A DNA stretch of 64,000 bases, from assembly GCA_018304465.1 (NCBI GenBank), contig JAGVWC010000009.1:125696-189695 (forward strand), written 5' to 3'. This DNA is from Candidatus Iainarchaeum sp. (GTDB lineage Archaea > Iainarchaeota > Iainarchaeia > Iainarchaeales > JAGVWC01). Positions 34,781 to 51,075 of the stretch are shown here, one piece after another. The notes below the pieces were generated by a model. That model had not been told where the DNA came from and did not search any database. It saw nothing but the letters and a program-made list of their open reading frames with translations. Within the stretch, counting starts at the first letter, position 1. Each line of letters starts with the position of its first letter. The position numbers were made by a program, and so were the translations under genes.

Positions 34781-34854
34781 GACCCCGTAGTATAGCCTGG
34801 ATAGTACTCAGGGTTCCGGACCCTGTAACCTGGGTTCGAATCCCAGCGGGGTCG
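34781..34854 (+). tRNA. tRNA-Arg (CCG)
   Basis: Acceptor stem GACCCCG/CGGGGTC, anticodon arm CAGGG-TTCCGGA-CCCTG, T loop TTCGAAT; no encoded CCA. Confidence 0.95.
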
Positions 34855-34954
34855 ATTTTCCATCAGGATCTTTTTGCCGCCGAACAGGTGGGTTGCGATT
34901 GTCGGATCTTTCAATGAATCATCGGATGTTTGATATTCTTTTGTTAAAAAAAAT

Positions 34955-35416
34955 TCAGTCGTTTTGGATTTGGTCCAGCGTCACATACAGTACGGTGTTT
35001 TTGTTCTGGGAAAGCGCGAACTCGAGCCGAGTTCCGTTTTGGATGCAAAAAAGAAAATACGGCGAAAGTTCGGGCCCGTGCGGAGTCGGCGGCAGGTATT
35101 CCAACGCCGGAAACCGCAGGTATACTTCCGGTTGTCGGATTGAAAAATCCGGTGAAAGAAAAAGAATCAACCGCCCTCCGACGGACTGGTGAACGGATTG
35201 TCTTAGTTCGGCGGAAAGAAACATTTTTTCAAACGGGCTTTTTTCAAAGGTGGCGACCCAAGTTCCGAAATGATCGTTTTCGGATACTTTTTTGAATTGG
35301 GTTGCCAATTGGTCTTCGATTTTTTGTCGTTTTAATGGCGGAATGCTAAAACCCAAAATCAAATTGAAAAAACTGGTTTTGGTCAGCGACACGCCGCTTT
35401 CTTTGGTATAGTTCAT
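34955..35416 (-). CDS. Hypothetical protein between two tRNA-Arg genes
   Basis: A 153-codon ORF filling the spacer; no recognised motif. Confidence 0.5.
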   Translation of the reverse strand: MNYTKESGVSLTKTSFFNLILGFSIPPLKRQKIEDQLATQFKKVSENDHFGTWVATFEKSPFEKMFLSAELRQSVHQSVGGRLILFLSPDFSIRQPEVYLRFPALEYLPPTPHGPELSPYFLFCIQNGTRLEFALSQNKNTVLYVTLDQIQND

Positions 35417-35687
35417 CAAAAAGCCTTCGGTTTGGTATTCTAACGGATTTTTTTAATAAAAAGCTTTTCGGAGACCGGAAAAAGCACGGCCAATCTTTAA
35501 AAACCGATTTTTGCAGTAATTGTGTACTGATTCGACCGGTTGGATGCTTTGTGCTTTATCCGAAAGCACCGGTATTTCGGCACCTGCGGTCGAAAACGCG
35601 GGCCCATTGGGCCGACTGGCAGCCTTTTGAAAAAGGCTGACGAAAAGTAAATAATTCTTTTCCCAGGTTTTCTTGTAAAGAAAAGCT

Positions 35688-35761
35688 GGCCCCGTAGTAT
35701 AGCCTGGATAGTATGAAAGCTTGCGGAGCTTTTGACCTGGGTTCAAATCCCAGCGGGGTCA
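35688..35761 (+). tRNA. tRNA-Arg (GCG)
   Basis: Acceptor stem GGCCCCG/CGGGGTC, anticodon arm AAAGC-TTGCGGA-GCTTT, T loop TTCAAAT. Confidence 0.95.
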
Positions 35762-35825
35762 CTTATTCAAACCCAAAGAAAAACAATATTTACCTCCGAT
35801 TCGAATGGAATGTGGAGGAGTTCCA

Positions 35826-36164: not shown

Positions 36165-37514
36165 ATGTTTTCCGCAAAAGGACTTGCGATTTTTTTCGTC
36201 TTGGTTTTGTCGATGTCGGTTTTTGCCGACGGAATGATCGTGAACCCGGATATGATGCCGGTGCGACAAGACCGGCAAGAAGCCTTTATTGTCCACGAAA
36301 ACGGAATCCAATCCATGGTCCTGATGGTTAATCTGCAAGAAGCCATTAACACGACGGAGTCGCACGTGTGGATTTTTCCGGTTCCCGCAAAACCCGAGGA
36401 TATTTCCATCGCGAATCTGAAAGGTTTTCCCGCGATGACGGGAAAAGACGTCAAAACTCAGTTGACCGACAATCTTTTTTTCCTTGAAGCCTACATGACG
36501 ACAGCGGCGTTTCCGCCGTTTGTCATTTTCCCGCTGTTGATGATCGCGACCCCGATGAATTCGTACAGCAACGGAATGCCGATGGCCGACCTTAGAACGA
36601 CCCAAGATTCGTACGGAGTCGATATTTACCAGCACATCGACAAGTACGGTTTGGCAACCGAAGTCATCAAAGCGGATGACGTAGTCCGCTTTGAAAGCTA
36701 CTTAAATGCCCGAGGAACCAATCTGTCGGATGAAGCCGAAAGTTTTTTGACGGAGTATATGGGAAAAGATTACTCGTTTGTCGTCAGTTGGATCAGCGAC
36801 CCGGAAGAAGCGCGTGAAGTGACCGGCAATAACGATTATTATTATCGTCAGACGAATCCGATCGGAGTGTTCGTCCGGTTTCCGTCCGAAAATGTTTTTT
36901 TTCCGTTAAAACCCACCGCGTATTACGGAACCGATTCGTTTCCGGTGATCGTCAACGTGAAAGGTTTTTTTAATCCCGAAATTTACCAAAACGTCAAGGA
37001 ATCCACCACGATTTCGCATCATCAAGTGGATTTTTGGCGGCGAACGATTTCCGAGGAAGAATCCTTGCGGCAAGTGTTTGGAGAAAACATTCCTTCTTCC
37101 TTGCTTTTCACGCGAATCCAGATCAATTCGCAAGCCCAATATTTTACGGAGGACTTGTCGTTTACGCGGTCCGAAGCGTGGTCTCCGCATATCATGAATT
37201 TTTTCAATCAAACGTGGATTTTTTGGTTTGTGGTGCTGTTTGCTTTATCCGGATTGGTTTCGGCTTCGTTAACCAAGCGGGTTTTGAAATTGAACTGGAC
37301 GCATTTGGATGTCGTCGAGCTTTCCGTCGCGAATTTCTTTTCGATCATCGGCGCGGGAATCGTCATGGCCGTGATTCCAAAAAACCGGTTTAACGTGGAA
37401 GAAAAATCCTCGTTCGAAAAACGCCTTTTGTCGCTTGCGGTGTTTGAAGGATTTTTTCTGGTCGCAACCGTCATCTTGTTTTTGGTGACGTTGCTGATGC
37501 TCGCGGTCAAATAA
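36165..37514 (+). CDS. Secreted/membrane protein, DUF2330-like
   Basis: Signal peptide ending FA|DG, motifs QEAFI, WIFPVPAKP and FPSENVFFPLK, and three C-terminal TM helices. Confidence 0.65.
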   Translation: MFSAKGLAIFFVLVLSMSVFADGMIVNPDMMPVRQDRQEAFIVHENGIQSMVLMVNLQEAINTTESHVWIFPVPAKPEDISIANLKGFPAMTGKDVKTQLTDNLFFLEAYMTTAAFPPFVIFPLLMIATPMNSYSNGMPMADLRTTQDSYGVDIYQHIDKYGLATEVIKADDVVRFESYLNARGTNLSDEAESFLTEYMGKDYSFVVSWISDPEEAREVTGNNDYYYRQTNPIGVFVRFPSENVFFPLKPTAYYGTDSFPVIVNVKGFFNPEIYQNVKESTTISHHQVDFWRRTISEEESLRQVFGENIPSSLLFTRIQINSQAQYFTEDLSFTRSEAWSPHIMNFFNQTWIFWFVVLFALSGLVSASLTKRVLKLNWTHLDVVELSVANFFSIIGAGIVMAVIPKNRFNVEEKSSFEKRLLSLAVFEGFFLVATVILFLVTLLMLAVK

Positions 37515-37516
37515 AA

Positions 37517-38191
37517 TCAGATTTCTTTTTCCGGAATATGAACCGCGATTCCGGCTTTTTCCGCGAACGAAACCGCGTCTTGTTTGGTTCCGACGATGCT
37601 TCCAAAATGCATCGGGATCACGAGCCGCGGATTGATGGTACGCGCGGCTTTTACTGCTTCGTCCACCGTCATGACGTAGGTCCCGGAGATCGGCAGAAAC
37701 GCCACGTGGATTTTCTTTATTTTTTTCATTTCCGGAATGAAATCGGTGTCTCCGGCAAAGTAATAGCGGATATCATCCATTTCGAATACGAATCCGAGTT
37801 TTTGATCTTCTTTGGGATGAAACGGAACGCCTTGTGAACGAAACTTGTTGGTGTTGTACGCCGGAATTCCCGTGATCTGGAGTCCTTCGACTTCGAGGGA
37901 TTCGTCCGGATGCAGGACTTGAACGTTTCCGGTGAGCGCTTTGACGGCTTGAACGGAAGCAACAATTCGGGTCTCTTTTCCCGAAACTTTTTCGATGTCT
38001 TTGGGGCTGCAGTGATCGCGGTGTTCGTGGGAAATCAAAACAACGTCGGCTTTTTTTGAAAAAGAACCGATGTCATACGGGTCAATCACGATTTTTTTGG
38101 AGCCCGTGATAAAAAATCCGTCGTGTCCCAGCCAATCAATGGAATGCACCAAATCGTCAATATCCCTGGTTGGTTCGATCGTGCTGGTCAT
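37517..38191 (-). CDS. Metallo-beta-lactamase-fold hydrolase (UPF0173/UlaG-like)
   Basis: WLGHDGF, IDPY, SHEHRDH (HxHxDH), FAGDT and PMHFG motifs. Confidence 0.9.
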   Translation of the reverse strand: MTSTIEPTRDIDDLVHSIDWLGHDGFFITGSKKIVIDPYDIGSFSKKADVVLISHEHRDHCSPKDIEKVSGKETRIVASVQAVKALTGNVQVLHPDESLEVEGLQITGIPAYNTNKFRSQGVPFHPKEDQKLGFVFEMDDIRYYFAGDTDFIPEMKKIKKIHVAFLPISGTYVMTVDEAVKAARTINPRLVIPMHFGSIVGTKQDAVSFAEKAGIAVHIPEKEI

Positions 38192-38315
38192 AGTAGGATA
38201 ATGAAACGAAATGGTTTTATGGGTAACGAAAACCTGTTTTTGCAAAGAGTTTTTTGGCGTTTTTGAAAAAGAAAAAATGACTATCTTGCGACGTTACTTT
38301 TTCGGATCAAAAAAA

Positions 38316-38436
38316 TGCAGGGAGGCGGATTCGAACCGCCGAACGCACTAAGCGGCCGGCTCGTTCCAATTTTTCGCAGAATATTTCACGAAAAACTGCC
38401 TGAAGCCGGGAGGTTTGACCGCTCCCCAATCCCTGC
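38316..38436 (-). tRNA. tRNA-Leu (CAG) with a 37-nt intron at position 37/38
   Basis: Acceptor stem GCAGGGA/TCCCTGC, anticodon arm CCGGC-TTCAGG|A-GCCGG, long variable arm, T loop TTCGAAT. Confidence 0.93.
38362..38398 (-). other. tRNA intron with a relaxed bulge-helix-bulge motif
   Basis: Intron stem AGTTTTTCG/CGAAAAATT, central helix TTCA/GGAA with one mismatch, and 3-nt bulges GGC and CGA. Confidence 0.85.
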
Positions 38437-39462
38437 AAGGGAAAACAAGAGGTTTAAACGATCCTCTCGTTTGGGCAAATAATTCGCTACCAGAACATCT
38501 TTTAACCTTTTTATCTGGGATTTTGGGATCGAAAAGTCATTTTGGATATATTTGCCGTTCTTTAAGTGGGTTCCGTAATATTTGGCTTCAACTCCGTTTT
38601 TCTCCAGAAGAATGAGCAAGTCGTCTATGAGTCGCTTGCTTCTGAACGTGCATCCCATTCCACGGCCATGTTTTCCGATATCGCTGTCGATTAAGCCGGA
38701 AATAAATGGAATCTGCTCTCGCACAGGCAATTGTTTAATTGTGTCCGGGATGCATGCTTTTTCGCTTTTTTTTCCACTTGGAATTCCAATAATGTTTACA
38801 AAGAATCTGTAGAGCGCCTTGTTTGCCTTGCGCAGATCCCACGAAGGCCAATGGCTGTCCTTATATTGAAATGAAATTCGATTAATCTCAAACAATTTGA
38901 AAAAAATTGGCGATACTTTGTCCTGTAAAAACTCTTTTTGGCTACTTGTAAGAATTACAACAAAAGCATTGTTTCCATCCCGCCCATATTTTTTAACCGA
39001 AAAACAGCCGTCGCCCATAAGAATTCCAGTTAAATAAAGCAAGTCCGGAGAAAGCTCCTTTGGAATTCGAATAACCTCCTGAGTCGTGCTCGAAACATAG
39101 TCAATCTGCTCAGCTAGTTCAGTCAGTTCCTTTTCTTCAATGAAAAATTTCAGCTTTTCGATTGCAATCAAAGGGATTGAAGCCCTTCCGCAGAACCAGT
39201 CTTTGAAAACACATTGCTTAATCGGATATCCTATTTTTTCGGCCCATTTTTTTCGCCACGAGAATCCAGTTTTTTTAACCAGTCTTTGATCGATATTCCG
39301 AATCTTTTGAACAATCGGGATCGCTTTGGTATTTCGGATCGTCGGGTTTTTGCAGTACTTTGGCAATATTGTATATACCCTCAGACACCTGCGCAGAGTG
39401 GTGTCTTCCGCAGGAACATGTAAACGAAATATATCCAAAGTCATGCAAAAAATACAGTTCAT
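38386..39462 (-). CDS. Free-standing two-motif LAGLIDADG homing-endonuclease-like protein (start uncertain)
   Basis: LLYLTGILMGDGCF and IPFISGLIDSDIG motifs with GIPSGKKS between them. The gene is AT-rich and its 3' end overlaps tRNA-Leu. Confidence 0.85.
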   Translation of the reverse strand: MNCIFCMTLDIFRLHVPAEDTTLRRCLRVYTILPKYCKNPTIRNTKAIPIVQKIRNIDQRLVKKTGFSWRKKWAEKIGYPIKQCVFKDWFCGRASIPLIAIEKLKFFIEEKELTELAEQIDYVSSTTQEVIRIPKELSPDLLYLTGILMGDGCFSVKKYGRDGNNAFVVILTSSQKEFLQDKVSPIFFKLFEINRISFQYKDSHWPSWDLRKANKALYRFFVNIIGIPSGKKSEKACIPDTIKQLPVREQIPFISGLIDSDIGKHGRGMGCTFRSKRLIDDLLILLEKNGVEAKYYGTHLKNGKYIQNDFSIPKSQIKRLKDVLVANYLPKREDRLNLLFSLAGIGERSNLPASGSFS

Positions 39463-39535
39463 CGCATAATAAGGGAAAGGAGGCCGCTCTGCCAGTGATT
39501 CACAGTCTGGCGGGCATAAAGGCTTTTATGCGTTT

Positions 39536-40711
39536 TCAGATGCGCAAGAGTTTGTTGATTGCGAGTTCCCATTTTTCAGGATCTGAAACTGAATAGAATT
39601 CCGGTTTTTGTTTGTTAGCCCGGCTGATTTGGAGTCCGTCTTTTTCCGCGGTGGCGCTCACGACTTTTGGCAGGTCGGTCGAAACGGTCCGTAGACTTCC
39701 GACATAGACCAGACGTTTATTCGTCAAATACAGGTCTCCGCCGTCTATTTTTCTCCATTCCAAGTGTGATTCGGATTGACCCATGTGGATTCTGACGCCT
39801 TTGGCAACGCGAAAGCTTCCGCCACCATAGTTTCGAATCGATCTTGGTTCAAAAAATGCGACAGGTTCTGAAAAATGAAGAACTTCGCCTTTTTGTAATT
39901 GTAATGAGTCCGTGTCTGTAAGGATAGGGAGGTTTCCCTTTTCGATGTTTGAAAGCGTGTTTTCGCGTACCGTTTTTCCCGTATCCCGAATCCACTCCAG
40001 ATCTTGGGTGGTGAGAACGGAACCGTTGAAGCGCTGGTTTGAATCGCGCAAGTCGGTCGAGATTACAAACTGGTTTTCTCCTTTTGAAGTGAATAACGAC
40101 AAGCAATTAGAACATTGGATATTGCGGGAACGCAGCAGGCCGAAAAGGCTCTGGTGTTCGATTATATTCAAACCGGCCTTTTTGCAAAACGGGCACGTTC
40201 CCAATTCAGTGACCAAATCATGCTCTGGACCGGCCAAAATTTCAACTGGCGGGGGGAGTTGATTTTGAGTTTTTTTTGGAGCGATTGGTTTTTGTTCGAA
40301 TTCTTTTGGAACCAGGGGGACCAGTTTTTCTGGTAAGACATTTTTAATTGGTGCTGGCGTCGTGGGTTTTCTTGATTTATACCATCCGATTGCAAAACCA
40401 AGTACAACCAAGAGCCCGATGCCACCAGCAATCAGCATCAACAGAAAATAGAGGGCGCCTGGAACGACCCACCACCAGGAAATCTTTTCTTCCGCGCGGT
40501 TCTTGTAAAGCAGGTGTGAGGAGTATCCCAAGAGAGGCAAAAAAATCAGCAAAAGCAGGCCAAAAAAACCAACCAATATCGAGTTTTTATTGTAAGAATA
40601 AACAATTAGACCCACGACTACAAGAAAGAAATTTGCAACGAGCCAAAATTTGTATTTGCCGGCAGGGGACAGCGAATCAAGCTTTTGCATCAATCTCTCA
40701 AGTTGGTTCAT
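39536..40711 (-). CDS. Membrane protein with a zinc ribbon and a C-terminal PH-like domain
   Basis: Three N-terminal TM helices, CPFC...CSNC, and LQKGEVL...GGSFRVAKGVRI...DGGDLYLTNKRLVYVG. Confidence 0.75.
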   Translation of the reverse strand: MNQLERLMQKLDSLSPAGKYKFWLVANFFLVVVGLIVYSYNKNSILVGFFGLLLLIFLPLLGYSSHLLYKNRAEEKISWWWVVPGALYFLLMLIAGGIGLLVVLGFAIGWYKSRKPTTPAPIKNVLPEKLVPLVPKEFEQKPIAPKKTQNQLPPPVEILAGPEHDLVTELGTCPFCKKAGLNIIEHQSLFGLLRSRNIQCSNCLSLFTSKGENQFVISTDLRDSNQRFNGSVLTTQDLEWIRDTGKTVRENTLSNIEKGNLPILTDTDSLQLQKGEVLHFSEPVAFFEPRSIRNYGGGSFRVAKGVRIHMGQSESHLEWRKIDGGDLYLTNKRLVYVGSLRTVSTDLPKVVSATAEKDGLQISRANKQKPEFYSVSDPEKWELAINKLLRI

Positions 40712-50224: not shown

Positions 50225-50282
50225 AAGCTTTTCTTTGGCCAAATTGGTTGGTAAATGGTTCTTTTCGATTAAAGACTTTTGG

Positions 50283-50356
50283 GCCACAGTAGCACAACCT
50301 GGTGGTGTTCGGCATTGGTAATGCCGAGGTTGGGGGTTCAAATCCCCCCTGTGGCT
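50283..50356 (+). tRNA. tRNA-Thr (GGT)
   Basis: Acceptor stem GCCACAG/CTGTGGC, anticodon arm CGGCA-TTGGTAA-TGCCG, T loop TTCAAAT. Confidence 0.95.
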
Positions 50357-51075
50357 TTCCATTCAGTAATTTTTTGAATGTTTTTGGGGTTTGAAAATCC
50401 GATCAATCGCTCCCACCGTGAAAAATTTTTCGCCCCATAAAGAAAGATTCTCCATGTTTCACAAGGGGTGTTCGTCAGATAGTGATTTTGCAATTGGCGC
50501 GTGATTGAAAAAGTAAATCCGTTCACTTTCAATACTTCGCCAACTTTGTAAATCAATTTTTTACTCTTACTGGTAATGTCCAAGCGGGGATACGGACGCG
50601 CTTTTTTGTTTCGATTAACAAATCGTAGGTACCCATCTGTATCGAAGAGACCTCGCAGGAAATCAAAAATATACGGACTTCCAAAAAGCATTCCCGAAAT
50701 CTGAATATTGTCCTTTCGGCCAATCGGAAAACCGATTGATCGTTTAAACTCGCATAATCCTTTGGACGTGGCATAACACCCAAGACAACTATGACCATTC
50801 CGAATATGCAGGTTAAGGTTGTATATTTTTTTGTACAAAGGAACAAGTATATTATCGATATAGTCGCGTTCCTTTTTACTTGAAGCAATTTCGTAAATGT
50901 ATTTTGTTCCCCAAATCGATTTTTTAATACTCAGATATCCATCGCCCGTATGAATTCCCATTTCTTCTGCCAACTCGTGTGTCATGAATTCGGGAACAGA
51001 AAGTCCTTTTTCAATATCTGTTCGAGAGAGATTCACGGTAATCGTTTGATTCTGTGAATTTAATATCGGAAACAT
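50338..51075 (-). CDS. Free-standing two-motif LAGLIDADG homing-endonuclease-like protein
   Basis: LAEEMGIHTGDGYL and FDFLRGLFDTDGYL motifs, GFPIGRK and IGFSNPK. The stop codon lies in the antisense T loop of tRNA-Thr. Confidence 0.9.
   Translation of the reverse strand: MFPILNSQNQTITVNLSRTDIEKGLSVPEFMTHELAEEMGIHTGDGYLSIKKSIWGTKYIYEIASSKKERDYIDNILVPLYKKIYNLNLHIRNGHSCLGCYATSKGLCEFKRSIGFPIGRKDNIQISGMLFGSPYIFDFLRGLFDTDGYLRFVNRNKKARPYPRLDITSKSKKLIYKVGEVLKVNGFTFSITRQLQNHYLTNTPCETWRIFLYGAKNFSRWERLIGFSNPKNIQKITEWKATGGI

What the first reader, a model, noticed from the sequence alone, without database searches (positions are those of the whole stretch)
38307..39462. LAGLIDADG gene reads through the tRNA-Leu 5' exon and stops inside the tRNA intron
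Seen: the same-strand ORF encodes its last residues (AGIGERSNLPASGSFS) from the tRNA 5' exon and intron, and its TGA (38386-38388) lies in the intron. Removing the intron deletes the stop, and the frame stays open across the 3' exon to a TGA at 38307-38309 (GAGRLVRSAVRIRLPAFF). RNase P cleavage would leave a stop-less mRNA, and any tRNA promoter must lie inside the CDS. Inference: tRNA processing may gate nuclease expression, and the intron might protect the target site as in intron-less or collaborative homing.
Basis: partly seen in the sequence, partly recalled or inferred. Interest (0 to 1): 0.7.

Follow-up and report, generated by a model that had tools for sequence, protein, structure and literature searches.

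The report
Homing nuclease gene welded onto tRNA-Leu
A selfish DNA-cutting enzyme gene in a tiny groundwater archaeon sits so tightly against a leucine tRNA gene that it has no stop codon of its own and borrows one from inside the tRNA, and its relatives appear to drag the tRNA's front part and its intron along when they move between genomes.

Summary
tRNA-Leu(CAG) lies at 38316-38436 (-) with a 37-nt intron (38362-38398). The same-strand LAGLIDADG frame ends at TGA 38386-38388, inside that intron. It is not chance: among the 196 genomes held for this Iainarchaeota/Diapherotrites order, all 21 uninterrupted orthologous frames with a tRNA in the locus abut a tRNA-Leu(CAG/TAG) and stop inside it. 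The stop position is not conserved: 9 in the 5' exon, 2 at the TAG anticodon, 9 in the intron, 1 in the 3' exon. So splicing-dependent gating is not supported.

The AlphaFold2 model is I-DmoI-like. Its last helix ends at the tRNA's first base, and the tRNA-coded tail is disordered. In one genus, syntenic alleles with and without the gene place the ~1.1-kb element 0-14 nt upstream of the tRNA. They also show mosaic tRNAs: a donor-like 5' two-thirds and a resident T arm. This points to homing with co-conversion.

The gene is strongly linked to intron-bearing tRNA-Leu alleles (20/34 against 13/140; family-stratified odds ratio about 13). I read this as the intron hitch-hiking with the gene. Intron-based immunity remains a live rival. 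Six of seven free-standing LAGLIDADG genes in this genome lie beside tRNA genes. My literature searches found no prior description.

The parts
38386..39444 (-). LAGLIDADG homing endonuclease CDS (352 aa from M7; the longest ORF starts at 39462). It has an N-terminal ~125-aa helical domain with no Pfam match, followed by an I-DmoI-like two-motif core. The last 16 codons and the stop are read from the tRNA gene.
   Evidence: D145/G146 invariant and D255 nearly invariant, counted from M7; pLDDT 90.6, pTM 0.89; I-DmoI E 6e-8, TM 0.76-0.78 on the target; N-terminal 126 aa: no Pfam family
38316..38436 (-). tRNA-Leu(CAG) gene including its intron. It is the only CAG isoacceptor found in the genome.
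38362..38398 (-). 37-nt intron between tRNA positions 37 and 38. It holds the ORF's stop codon TGA at 38386-38388.
38309..38315 (-). Run of seven T directly after the tRNA. It looks like an archaeal terminator, which would make it the likely 3' end of both a HEG-tRNA co-transcript and the tRNA transcript (inferred).
   Evidence: read from the sequence; the terminator function is recalled knowledge
38498..38505 (-). TATA-like box (TTAAAAGA) 62-69 nt upstream of the tRNA, inside codons ..RLKD.. of the HEG. It is my candidate for the tRNA's own promoter. Other A/T boxes lie at 38477-38484 and 38453-38458.
   Evidence: the box is present in all long-subfamily members printed; strong DNA conservation with G020 and G021; kept in the C15 stub; other tRNAs of this genome carry such boxes mostly 30-50 nt upstream
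39466..39498 (-). HEG promoter region and left end of the element. A TATA-like box at 39466-39473 lies ~26 nt before ATG 39444, which suggests a leaderless mRNA (inferred). A ~17-nt motif at 39481-39498 is conserved in all 19 aligned loci, and no similarity is left upstream of it.
   Evidence: the promoter geometry is recalled knowledge
50338..51075 (-). Second free-standing LAGLIDADG ORF in the window (245 aa, another subfamily). Its 3' end overlaps tRNA-Thr(GGT) 50282-50357 (+) by 20 nt in antisense.
   Evidence: LAGLIDADG_3, 34.1 bits

Best explanation
The ORF encodes a real and probably active I-DmoI-like LAGLIDADG homing endonuclease. It belongs to a family of selfish, free-standing genes in one order of Iainarchaeota (DPANN archaea). 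The family always lands 0-14 nt upstream of a tRNA-Leu(CAG/TAG) gene, on the same strand.

The element is about 1.05-1.1 kb. It brings its own promoter, namely a conserved motif plus a TATA box ~26 nt before the ATG. The last helix of its folded protein is encoded by the bases that touch the tRNA. There is therefore no room for a stop codon of its own. Translation runs into the tRNA and ends at whichever in-frame stop the tRNA or its intron offers. The tRNA-coded tail is a disordered appendix.

The insertion cuts the tRNA off from its resident TATA box. The tRNA must then be expressed either from A/T boxes inside the HEG's 3' codons or from the HEG-tRNA co-transcript. This would explain why loci that lost the gene keep its last ~100 nt (inferred).

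Spread is by homing (inferred). The enzyme cuts an empty allele near the tRNA 5' junction. Repair copies the element together with the 5' two-thirds of the donor's tRNA, including any anticodon-loop intron, and the exchange ends before the T arm. Carrier alleles are immune because the insertion breaks the site. Intron-bearing tRNA-Leu alleles thus hitch-hike with the nuclease.

Shown here: the anatomy, its conservation, the presence/absence alleles, the mosaic tRNAs and the link to the intron. Inferred: cleavage activity, the target site, the promoters and the transcripts.
For: (1) Family and fold. Pfam LAGLIDADG_3 scores above its cut-off. The AF2 model has pLDDT 90.6 and pTM 0.89, and its best solved matches are intein homing-endonuclease domains and I-DmoI. 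Both catalytic acidic positions are kept in 17 of 17 aligned orthologs, one of them as E.

(2) Conserved architecture. There are 31 family-level matches (E<1e-50) in 30 of 196 genomes of the order. No family-level match was found in the 19 other genomes of the phylum that are held. All 21 uninterrupted frames with a tRNA in the locus end 10-66 nt inside a tRNA-Leu(CAG/TAG).

(3) No room for a stop. The model's helix 327-336 ends at the codon before the tRNA, and residues 343-352 have pLDDT below 50.

(4) Mobility. The distribution is patchy. Broken copies occur in G020, G085, G096, G106, G149 and G034. 3' stubs occur in G021, G125 and this genome's own tRNA-Leu(TAG) at C15. In genus g36 the flanks of three HEG+ genomes align with two HEG- genomes on both sides at 69-79% identity. 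The ~1.1-kb difference ends 0-14 nt before the tRNA.

(5) Co-conversion. G051 (HEG+) against its genus-mate G052 (HEG-) scores 24/38 in the 5' exon, 15/22 in the next 22 nt and 24/24 in the last 24 nt. G051 against G003 (another family, HEG+) scores 33/38, 19/22 and 20/24. G050 shows the same mosaic pattern. The two HEG- genomes score 37/38, 20/22 and 22/24 against each other. G051's acceptor stem has a T.T mismatch at pair 6:67.

(6) Link to the intron. A family HEG in any state lies next to 20 of 34 intron-bearing tRNA-Leu(YAG) loci, against 13 of 140 intron-less ones. The Fisher test gives p 3e-9. Stratified by GTDB family, the odds ratio is 13 and p is 2e-6. In 8 of 9 genomes that hold one gene of each kind, the HEG sits on the intron-bearing one.

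(7) Generality. 6 of 7 free-standing LAGLIDADG ORFs of this genome lie within 80 nt of a tRNA gene. 8 of 10 distant free-standing relatives in sister genomes have a tRNA within ~300 nt.
Against: No cleavage, target site, transcript start or transcript end has been observed. No RNA run was available.

The insertion point rests on alignments of A/T-rich spacers in one genus, and two comparisons give different answers (-14 and about 0).

G100 and G101, of one genus, share the intron-bearing tRNA but have unrelated upstream DNA. That pair therefore shows no clean empty site.

Mosaic tRNAs were examined in one genus only. Non-Watson-Crick acceptor pairs (5 of 24 HEG+ against 1 of 31 HEG-) are only suggestive, and I ran no test on them.

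The intron statistics count related genomes. They use pattern matches that miss variant tRNAs and introns outside about 17-47 nt. Some rows were classed by eye.

Hitch-hiking does not by itself explain why about 40% of intron-bearing alleles lack the gene. Later loss of the gene would explain it.

The promoter assignments are consensus-like boxes only.
Confidence: 0.62

Rival explanations
1. Intron-based immunity, an archaeal form of collaborative homing. The enzyme's target spans the intron insertion site in the anticodon loop of intron-less tRNA-Leu. The intron splits that site and so protects carrier alleles. The HEG and the intron then spread as a cooperating pair.
For: There is a strong link between the HEG and the intron that holds up under family stratification, and 8 of 9 within-genome pairs agree. 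The closest solved relative, I-DmoI, is titled an intron-encoded endonuclease in its PDB entry. About 40% of intron-bearing alleles lack the gene, which would fit resistant alleles.
Against: Five uninterrupted HEGs sit on intron-less tRNA-Leu genes (G007, G050, G121, G128, G160), as do G107, G174 and G087. The insertion 0-14 nt upstream of the tRNA already offers the classical kind of immunity, by breaking the site. Co-conversion tracts run through the intron position, so plain linkage explains the association. No cleavage data exist.
Confidence: 0.2
2. Expression gating by tRNA processing. The nuclease is made only from unprocessed HEG-tRNA transcripts. RNase P cleavage, or intron removal, takes away the stop codon and so throttles a toxic enzyme.
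For: None of 21 orthologs has a stop before the tRNA, so every full-length reading frame needs RNA that reaches into the tRNA. The only T run of seven near the 3' end follows the tRNA. A stop-less message after RNase P cleavage follows logically; what happens to it rests on recalled knowledge of non-stop mRNA rescue.
Against: The stop position varies among 5' exon, anticodon, intron and 3' exon, so splicing cannot be the common switch. The tail is predicted to be disordered, so a product released from a stop-less message would still hold the whole fold. Tight abutment alone explains the missing stop. There are no RNA data.
Confidence: 0.12
3. Domesticated LAGLIDADG DNA-binding protein (WhiA-like) that regulates tRNA-Leu transcription. 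On this reading it is not a mobile nuclease.
For: It always lies next to the same kind of gene. It carries an extra N-terminal helical domain. A conserved motif lies upstream of its own promoter. WhiA appears among the structural matches at rank 49.
Against: It is present in only 32 of 215 genomes at E<=1e-40. There are pseudogenes and stubs. There are presence/absence alleles in one genus. Both catalytic acidic residues are conserved. The best structural matches are active nucleases.
Confidence: 0.04
4. Chance overlap of an unrelated or spurious ORF with a tRNA gene.
For: In a compact genome an ORF can run on to the next stop by accident.
Against: 21 of 21 orthologs show the same arrangement. 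The fold prediction is confident. 6 of 7 free-standing LAGLIDADG ORFs of this genome lie by tRNAs, with a binomial estimate of about 5e-11.
Confidence: 0.02

Closest known systems
I-DmoI and other archaeal monomeric two-motif LAGLIDADG homing endonucleases
   Same: The predicted fold is the same (Foldseek E 6e-8, target TM 0.76-0.78 over ~200 columns). There are two LAGLIDADG motifs with acidic residues in one chain. The host is archaeal.
   Different: I-DmoI is encoded inside an intron, according to its PDB title. This gene is free-standing, lies upstream of the intron-bearing gene, carries an extra ~125-aa N-terminal domain with no Pfam family, and has no stop codon of its own.
Phage T4 SegB, a free-standing GIY-YIG homing endonuclease in the tRNA gene cluster
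   Same: It is a free-standing nuclease gene placed between tRNA genes. Its target is in the tRNA region, and it gives preferred inheritance of that region (PMC2988022, Table 1 and reference title; passages read). In seven relatives' loci ARAGORN calls a tRNA-Arg(GCG) just upstream of the HEG and tRNA-Leu downstream of it.
   Different: The nuclease family differs (GIY-YIG against LAGLIDADG). SegB is in a phage, not a cellular archaeal chromosome. It has no ORF-tRNA overlap and no intron.
Collaborative homing and trans homing in phages (a free-standing HEG that targets the insertion site of an ORF-less intron; mobE with the defunct I-TevIII)
   Same: A free-standing HEG lies next to a gene with an ORF-less intron, and the two are statistically linked. 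PMC2988022 (passage read) describes the scenario and the related trans homing by mobE. PMC2790892 and PMC6083498 were seen only in the search listing.
   Different: Those introns are self-splicing group I introns in protein-coding genes of phages. Here the intron is removed by a protein enzyme and sits in an archaeal tRNA. The target site is unknown, and intron-less carriers exist.
T4 homing endonuclease genes with embedded promoters of neighbouring host genes
   Same: PMC2988022 (passage read) states that promoters embedded in endonuclease genes favour retention, because a deletion would remove an essential host promoter. Here TATA-like boxes for the tRNA lie in the HEG's 3' codons, and HEG-less loci keep that stub.
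   Different: The promoter function is not shown here. The downstream gene is a tRNA that overlaps the ORF.
WhiA-type domesticated LAGLIDADG regulators
   Same: A LAGLIDADG scaffold joined to a helical DNA-binding-like domain (rank 49).
   Different: The family here keeps the catalytic acidic residues, is patchy in distribution, and decays into pseudogenes.

Membership tests
LAGLIDADG endonuclease superfamily | Sequence match to a LAGLIDADG profile above its curated cut-off | tested here: met
   PF14528 LAGLIDADG_3, 30.5 bits against a cut-off of 22.5, E 4e-7
LAGLIDADG endonuclease superfamily | Two LAGLIDADG helices, each ending in a catalytic acidic residue (single-chain type) | tested here: met
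   D145/G146 are invariant and D255 is nearly invariant (one E) in 17 orthologs, counted from M7
LAGLIDADG endonuclease superfamily | Pseudo-dimeric alpha-beta-beta-alpha-beta-beta-alpha fold | tested here: met
   AF2 pLDDT 90.6; Foldseek to I-DmoI with TM 0.76-0.78 on the target
LAGLIDADG endonuclease superfamily | Site-specific double-strand DNA cleavage | not testable with these tools
   Needs a biochemical assay
Homing endonuclease gene (mobile selfish element) | Patchy distribution, with decayed copies, among close relatives | tested here: met
   32 of 215 genomes at E<=1e-40; pseudogenes, truncations and 3' stubs
Homing endonuclease gene (mobile selfish element) | Presence/absence alleles at one syntenic site | tested here: met
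   Genus g36: G048, G050 and G051 against G035 and G052, with both flanks aligned. One genus only; the pair G100/G101 is not clean
Homing endonuclease gene (mobile selfish element) | Co-conversion of flanking markers | tested here: met
   Mosaic tRNA-Leu in G050 and G051; T.T mismatch in G051's acceptor stem
Homing endonuclease gene (mobile selfish element) | The enzyme cuts the empty allele and not the occupied one | not testable with these tools
   Needs an assay
Collaborative homing pair (free-standing HEG plus ORF-less intron) | HEG adjacent to a gene carrying an ORF-less intron, and the two co-occur | tested here: met
   20/34 against 13/140; stratified odds ratio 13
Collaborative homing pair (free-standing HEG plus ORF-less intron) | The target site is the intron insertion site, and the intron-bearing allele is immune | not testable with these tools
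   Indirect evidence leans against strict dependence: 5 uninterrupted HEGs lie on intron-less tRNAs
Archaeal bulge-helix-bulge (BHB) tRNA intron | Intron at the canonical 37/38 position, whose removal leaves a cloverleaf | tested here: met
Archaeal bulge-helix-bulge (BHB) tRNA intron | Canonical 3-nt bulge, 4-bp helix, 3-nt bulge at the splice sites | tested here: inconclusive
   The minimum-energy fold gives a 4x4 internal loop between the anticodon stem and an intron hairpin. By eye a relaxed motif with a 4-bp central helix can be drawn. The abstract of PMC5829648 (search listing) says some archaeal splicing endonuclease types accept non-canonical introns

The most novel reading that the evidence does not exclude
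Free-standing LAGLIDADG genes parked against tRNA genes are the vehicle by which protein-spliced tRNA introns move between DPANN archaeal genomes. Each homing event copies the nuclease gene plus the 5' part of the donor tRNA with its intron. The intron may in turn shield the allele from the enzyme. The nuclease is translated from what is, in effect, the 5' leader of a pre-tRNA, so RNase P processing competes with its synthesis. This would be the first mechanistic route for lateral gain of archaeal tRNA introns. It would also be an archaeal counterpart of collaborative homing.
Probability: 0.3. Interest if true: 0.85.

Novelty: new variant of a known kind. Interest (0 to 1): 0.72.

Why it matters
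How archaeal tRNA introns are gained, why they cluster at position 37/38, and whether they interact with mobile DNA are old open questions. The idea that introns guard tRNA genes against integrating elements is recalled from the literature, not read here.

This locus and its roughly 30 relatives make those questions testable. They give natural alleles in all four combinations of HEG and intron. They give syntenic empty sites and mosaic tRNAs that mark recombination tracts.

The family also shows an unusual gene layout: a protein gene with no stop codon of its own, which in two genomes uses the tRNA's TAG anticodon triplet as its stop. The layout couples a selfish gene to an essential single-copy tRNA, both through an embedded promoter and through shared RNA.

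On the practical side, the family is a set of compact, diverse I-DmoI-like enzymes with probable tRNA-gene targets. The finding also warns annotators that tRNA finders run without intron mode miss or misname these genes. Three of this genome's four tRNA-Leu genes were either missed in bacterial mode or called tRNA-Val with introns allowed.

Tried and rejected
Rfam scan of 37500-40500: only sub-threshold matches, because the intron breaks the tRNA model. I used ARAGORN with introns instead.

ARAGORN's three very long 'introns' (658-1447 nt) cover ordinary protein genes and are false.

The C5 LAGLIDADG ORF (419 aa) has no tRNA beside it. It is the one exception among the seven.

The look-up of sequencing runs: no RNA holder listed. 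There were ten DNA metagenome runs, four of them possible sources of this DNA.

Read laying on four DNA runs: contigs only. The joints at the tRNA are other tRNA-Leu genes (the CAA paralogue and other organisms' intron-less copies), not alleles of this locus. Nothing was learned about transcripts or about HEG-less variants.

Protein atlas search with the N-terminal 126 aa: best score 0.85, below the level that means anything, with an HTH family on 29% of one cluster. Pfam on that part gives nothing. NCBIfam gives only a far sub-threshold intein-region match.

G100 against G101: I hoped for a clean empty site, but the upstream DNA is unrelated.

I looked by eye for anticodon-arm differences between intron-less HEG+ and HEG- tRNAs in the rows. 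I found no clear pattern.

In the few other LAGLIDADG subfamilies seen, introns are not visibly enriched at HEG-flanked tRNAs. There are too few cases to judge.

Literature searches used these terms: LAGLIDADG, tRNA gene, archaea, free-standing, homing endonuclease, tRNA intron, bulge-helix-bulge, DPANN, collaborative homing, Diapherotrites, Iainarchaeota. No listed paper describes tRNA-flanking LAGLIDADG genes in archaea. Subscription journals and supplementary files were not searchable, so a prior report cannot be excluded.

I did not use the search for homologous proteins, the search of protein representatives, complex prediction or covariance models.
Full report
THE OBSERVATION

On the minus strand of the window, ARAGORN run with introns allowed finds a tRNA-Leu(CAG) at window 38315-38437 with a 37-nt intron. 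The default bacterial run missed it. Rfam gives only a sub-threshold tRNA-clan match with a 41-nt insertion in the anticodon loop.

Removing 38362-38398 leaves an 84-nt RNA that folds as a cloverleaf. The intron lies between tRNA positions 37 and 38.

The ORF 38386-39462 (358 aa) matches Pfam LAGLIDADG_3 above its cut-off. Its last 16 residues are read from the tRNA 5' exon and the intron. Its TGA at 38386-38388 is inside the intron. After in-silico splicing the frame runs to TGA 38307-38309.

The likely true start is ATG 39442-39444. All 16 other orthologs aligned begin at that column. In 19 aligned loci a TATA-like box sits about 26 nt before that ATG. By recalled archaeal promoter geometry, this suggests a leaderless mRNA.

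WHAT THE ORGANISM IS

The genome has 1.25 Mb in 15 contigs, about 47% G+C, and many intron-bearing tRNAs. Record titles of the closest loci name Diapherotrites / Iainarchaeum MAGs, which are DPANN archaea. DNA runs holding the stretch are labelled groundwater and soil metagenomes.

THE OVERLAP IS A FAMILY TRAIT

A profile of four orthologs was searched against the 196 genomes held for the order. It gave 31 family-level matches (E<1e-50) in 30 genomes. A 17-sequence profile searched against the 215 genomes of the phylum found matches at E<=1e-40 in 32 genomes, all of them in this one order.

I examined the 30 fetched loci plus L035, which is the second copy in G108. Of these, 21 have an uninterrupted frame of at least 300 codons and a tRNA in the locus.
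- All 21 lie directly upstream of a tRNA-Leu(CAG or TAG), on the same strand.
- All 21 frames end 10-66 nt inside the tRNA. None stops before it.
- The stop lies in the 5' exon in 9, in the intron in 9, and in the variable arm of an intron-less tRNA in 1 (G007).
- In 2 (G050, G097) the stop is the tRNA's own TAG anticodon triplet.

Three further loci have one in-frame stop at or near the start of the match (G107, G174, G122) and also end inside the tRNA. The rest are cut by contig ends (G133, G105, and the tRNA of G087) or are broken or truncated (G096, G085, G106, G149).

But a stop in the intron is only one of several outcomes.

WHY THERE IS NO STOP

AlphaFold2 on the 17-sequence alignment gives a confident model (pLDDT 90.6, pTM 0.89). 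It has three parts:
- an N-terminal helical domain of about 125 residues with no Pfam family;
- a two-motif LAGLIDADG core, whose best solved matches are intein homing-endonuclease domains and I-DmoI (E 6e-8, TM 0.76-0.78 on the target);
- two C-terminal helices, the last of which (model residues 327-336) ends exactly at the codon before the tRNA.

The tRNA-coded residues are low-confidence, with 343-352 below 50. The folded protein's coding sequence thus touches the tRNA. The frame simply runs on to the first stop the tRNA offers. Both catalytic acidic positions are conserved in the alignment.

A MOBILE ELEMENT

Distribution is patchy. Broken copies and stubs occur as follows:
- G020 has a pseudogene.
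- G021 keeps only the last ~110 nt, directly after a tRNA-Arg(GCG).
- G125 keeps a 33-codon stub.
- This genome's own tRNA-Leu(TAG) at C15 41440-41556, which ARAGORN miscalls as Val, keeps a ~100-nt stub with 53-56% identity to residues 311-344.

Genus g36 gives clean alleles. The flanks of three HEG+ genomes (G048, G050, G051) align with two HEG- genomes (G035, G052) on both sides at 69-79% identity. The extra ~1.1 kb begins at a ~17-nt motif conserved in all 19 aligned loci, followed by the TATA box. It ends at the tRNA. The resident spacer is kept at the left junction up to a point that corresponds to 14 nt (G048 against G052) or about 0 nt (G050 against G035) before the tRNA. These comparisons are alignments of A/T-rich DNA made by eye.

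The insertion therefore lies between the resident TATA-like box (about -38 to -30 in G052) and the tRNA.

MOSAIC tRNAs

Within that genus the two HEG- tRNAs are nearly identical. They score 37/38 in the 5' exon, 20/22 in the first 22 nt of the 3' exon, and 22/24 in the last 24 nt.

HEG+ G051 against G052 scores 24/38, 15/22 and 24/24. G051 against the HEG+ G003 of another family scores 33/38, 19/22 and 20/24. G050 against G052 scores 23/38, 12/22 and 24/24.

G051's acceptor stem carries a T.T mismatch at pair 6:67. This is expected if its 5' strand came from a donor and its 3' strand is resident. Non-Watson-Crick acceptor pairs occur in 5 of 24 HEG+ loci and 1 of 31 HEG- loci, which is suggestive only.

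I read this as gene conversion that copied the element together with the 5' two-thirds of the tRNA and ended before the T arm.

THE INTRON LINK

Two pattern searches over the same 196 genomes listed intron-less tRNA-Leu(YAG) genes and genes with an intron of about 17-47 nt.
- Intron-less: 140 rows by my count, 3 of them judged false.
- Intron-bearing: 45 rows. Five were shown false, two were left unresolved, and four were judged false by eye. That leaves 34.

A family-level HEG in any state (intact, broken or stub) lies next to 20 of the 34 intron-bearing loci, against 13 of 140 intron-less loci. Fisher's test gives p 3e-9. Counting intact copies only, the figures are 14 of 34 against 8 of 140 (that test was run with 35 as the first denominator).

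Stratified by GTDB family in ten strata, the Mantel-Haenszel odds ratio is 13 with p 2e-6. Nine genomes hold one intron-bearing and one intron-less gene with the HEG on exactly one of them. In eight of the nine the HEG is on the intron-bearing gene; G087 is the exception.

Caveats:
- Genomes within a family are still related.
- Variant tRNAs (G173, G097, G088) escape the patterns.
- HEG absence at loci I did not fetch rests on the absence of a family-level match on that contig.

Five uninterrupted HEGs sit on intron-less tRNAs. The intron is therefore not required.

PROMOTERS (FROM SEQUENCE ONLY)

In this genome TATA-like boxes lie mostly 30-50 nt upstream of tRNA genes. Upstream of tRNA-Leu(CAG) such boxes lie at -69..-62, -48..-41 and -22..-17, all inside the HEG's last 25 codons.

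The -69 box is present in every long-subfamily member printed. It is strongly conserved at the DNA level with G020 and G021, and it is retained in both ~100-nt stubs.

This parallels the embedded promoters of T4 endonuclease genes, which are said to favour retention of the endonuclease (PMC2988022, passage read).

GENERALITY

In this genome 6 of 7 free-standing LAGLIDADG ORFs lie within 80 nt of a tRNA gene. The tRNAs are Leu-CAG, Glu-CTC, Thr-GGT, Leu-CAA, Val-GAC and Ala. The C5 ORF is the exception. A rough binomial estimate is 5e-11.

One of these lies in the window: ORF 50338-51075 (-) overlaps tRNA-Thr(GGT) 50282-50357 (+) by 20 nt. The other LAGLIDADG matches lie in open frames of 700-1650 codons and are presumably inteins.

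Of 10 more distant free-standing relatives in sister genomes, 8 have a tRNA within about 300 nt.

MECHANISM AND RIVALS

The best-supported reading is classical homing at the tRNA 5' junction. The insertion itself gives immunity, the intron hitch-hikes in the co-conversion tract, and the missing stop is a by-product of tight abutment.

Intron-based immunity (collaborative homing) fits the statistics. It is not needed, and the intron-less carriers strain it.

Gating by tRNA processing remains logically possible, because any full-length frame needs RNA that reaches into the tRNA. But the variable stop position and the disordered tail argue that nothing depends on the tail or on splicing.

A domesticated regulator is unlikely, given the decay, the patchiness and the conserved catalytic residues.

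COMPARISON WITH WHAT IS KNOWN

The closest known systems are these:
- I-DmoI-type archaeal LAGLIDADG enzymes (same fold);
- T4 SegB (a free-standing nuclease gene between tRNA genes);
- collaborative and trans homing (a free-standing HEG plus an ORF-less intron);
- T4's embedded promoters.

None of them combines a cellular archaeal chromosome, a tRNA gene used as the stop-codon donor, and a protein-spliced tRNA intron. Four literature searches listed no paper that describes this. Supplements and subscription journals could not be searched.

VERDICT

The finding is a new variant of a known kind. Interest is 0.72.

Noticed in passing
window 50282-51075: A second free-standing LAGLIDADG ORF (50338-51075, minus strand, 245 aa, another subfamily) ends 20 nt inside tRNA-Thr(GGT) 50282-50357 on the opposite strand. 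The two genes converge.
   Followed up: partly
G000 C15:41440-41653 (outside the window): ARAGORN calls this gene tRNA-Val(tac) with an intron, but it is a tRNA-Leu(TAG) with a ~33-nt intron. Upstream of it lies a ~100-nt stub of the same HEG family (53-56% identity to residues 311-344). The tRNA-Leu(TAA) at C11 ~93320 is likewise miscalled as Val.
   Followed up: yes
L048 (G050) and L047 (G097): In these two relatives the nuclease frame's stop codon is the tRNA's own TAG anticodon triplet (tRNA nt 35-37).
   Followed up: yes
window 39481-39498, and the same place in 18 other loci (alignment A4): A ~17-nt motif, with two G and one A invariant, lies 8-12 nt upstream of the HEG's TATA box in all 19 aligned loci and marks the left end of the element. 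Its role is unknown. It could be an operator for the N-terminal domain, part of a promoter, or a relic of the target site.
   Followed up: partly
window 34781-35762; loci L010, L015, L020, L050, L061, L063, L064: In seven relatives' loci ARAGORN calls a tRNA-Arg(GCG) on the same strand just upstream of the HEG or its remnant, so two tRNA genes flank the element. In this window tRNA-Arg(GCG) (35688-35762, +) lies 2.5 kb away on the other strand, which suggests a local rearrangement.
   Followed up: no
G000, e.g. C6:140540-140833, C15:284642-284899, C15:293514-295553, C13:116518-117000: Many LAGLIDADG_3 matches lie inside open frames of 700-1650 codons. These are presumably inteins in large host proteins, and the C15 frame of 1643 codons holds several matches.
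   Followed up: no
tRNA-Leu(TAG) introns in L038, L040, L042, L046, L049, L053, L056, L057, L104, L117: The TAG-type introns share a conserved core and a hairpin with compensatory changes across at least five GTDB families. Between genus-mates G100 and G101 the intron is better conserved than the anticodon and D stems.
   Followed up: partly
window 38900-38910 (minus strand, inside the HEG CDS): A run of seven T lies on the coding strand within the nuclease ORF. By the recalled archaeal oligo-T termination rule it could end some transcripts early.
   Followed up: no
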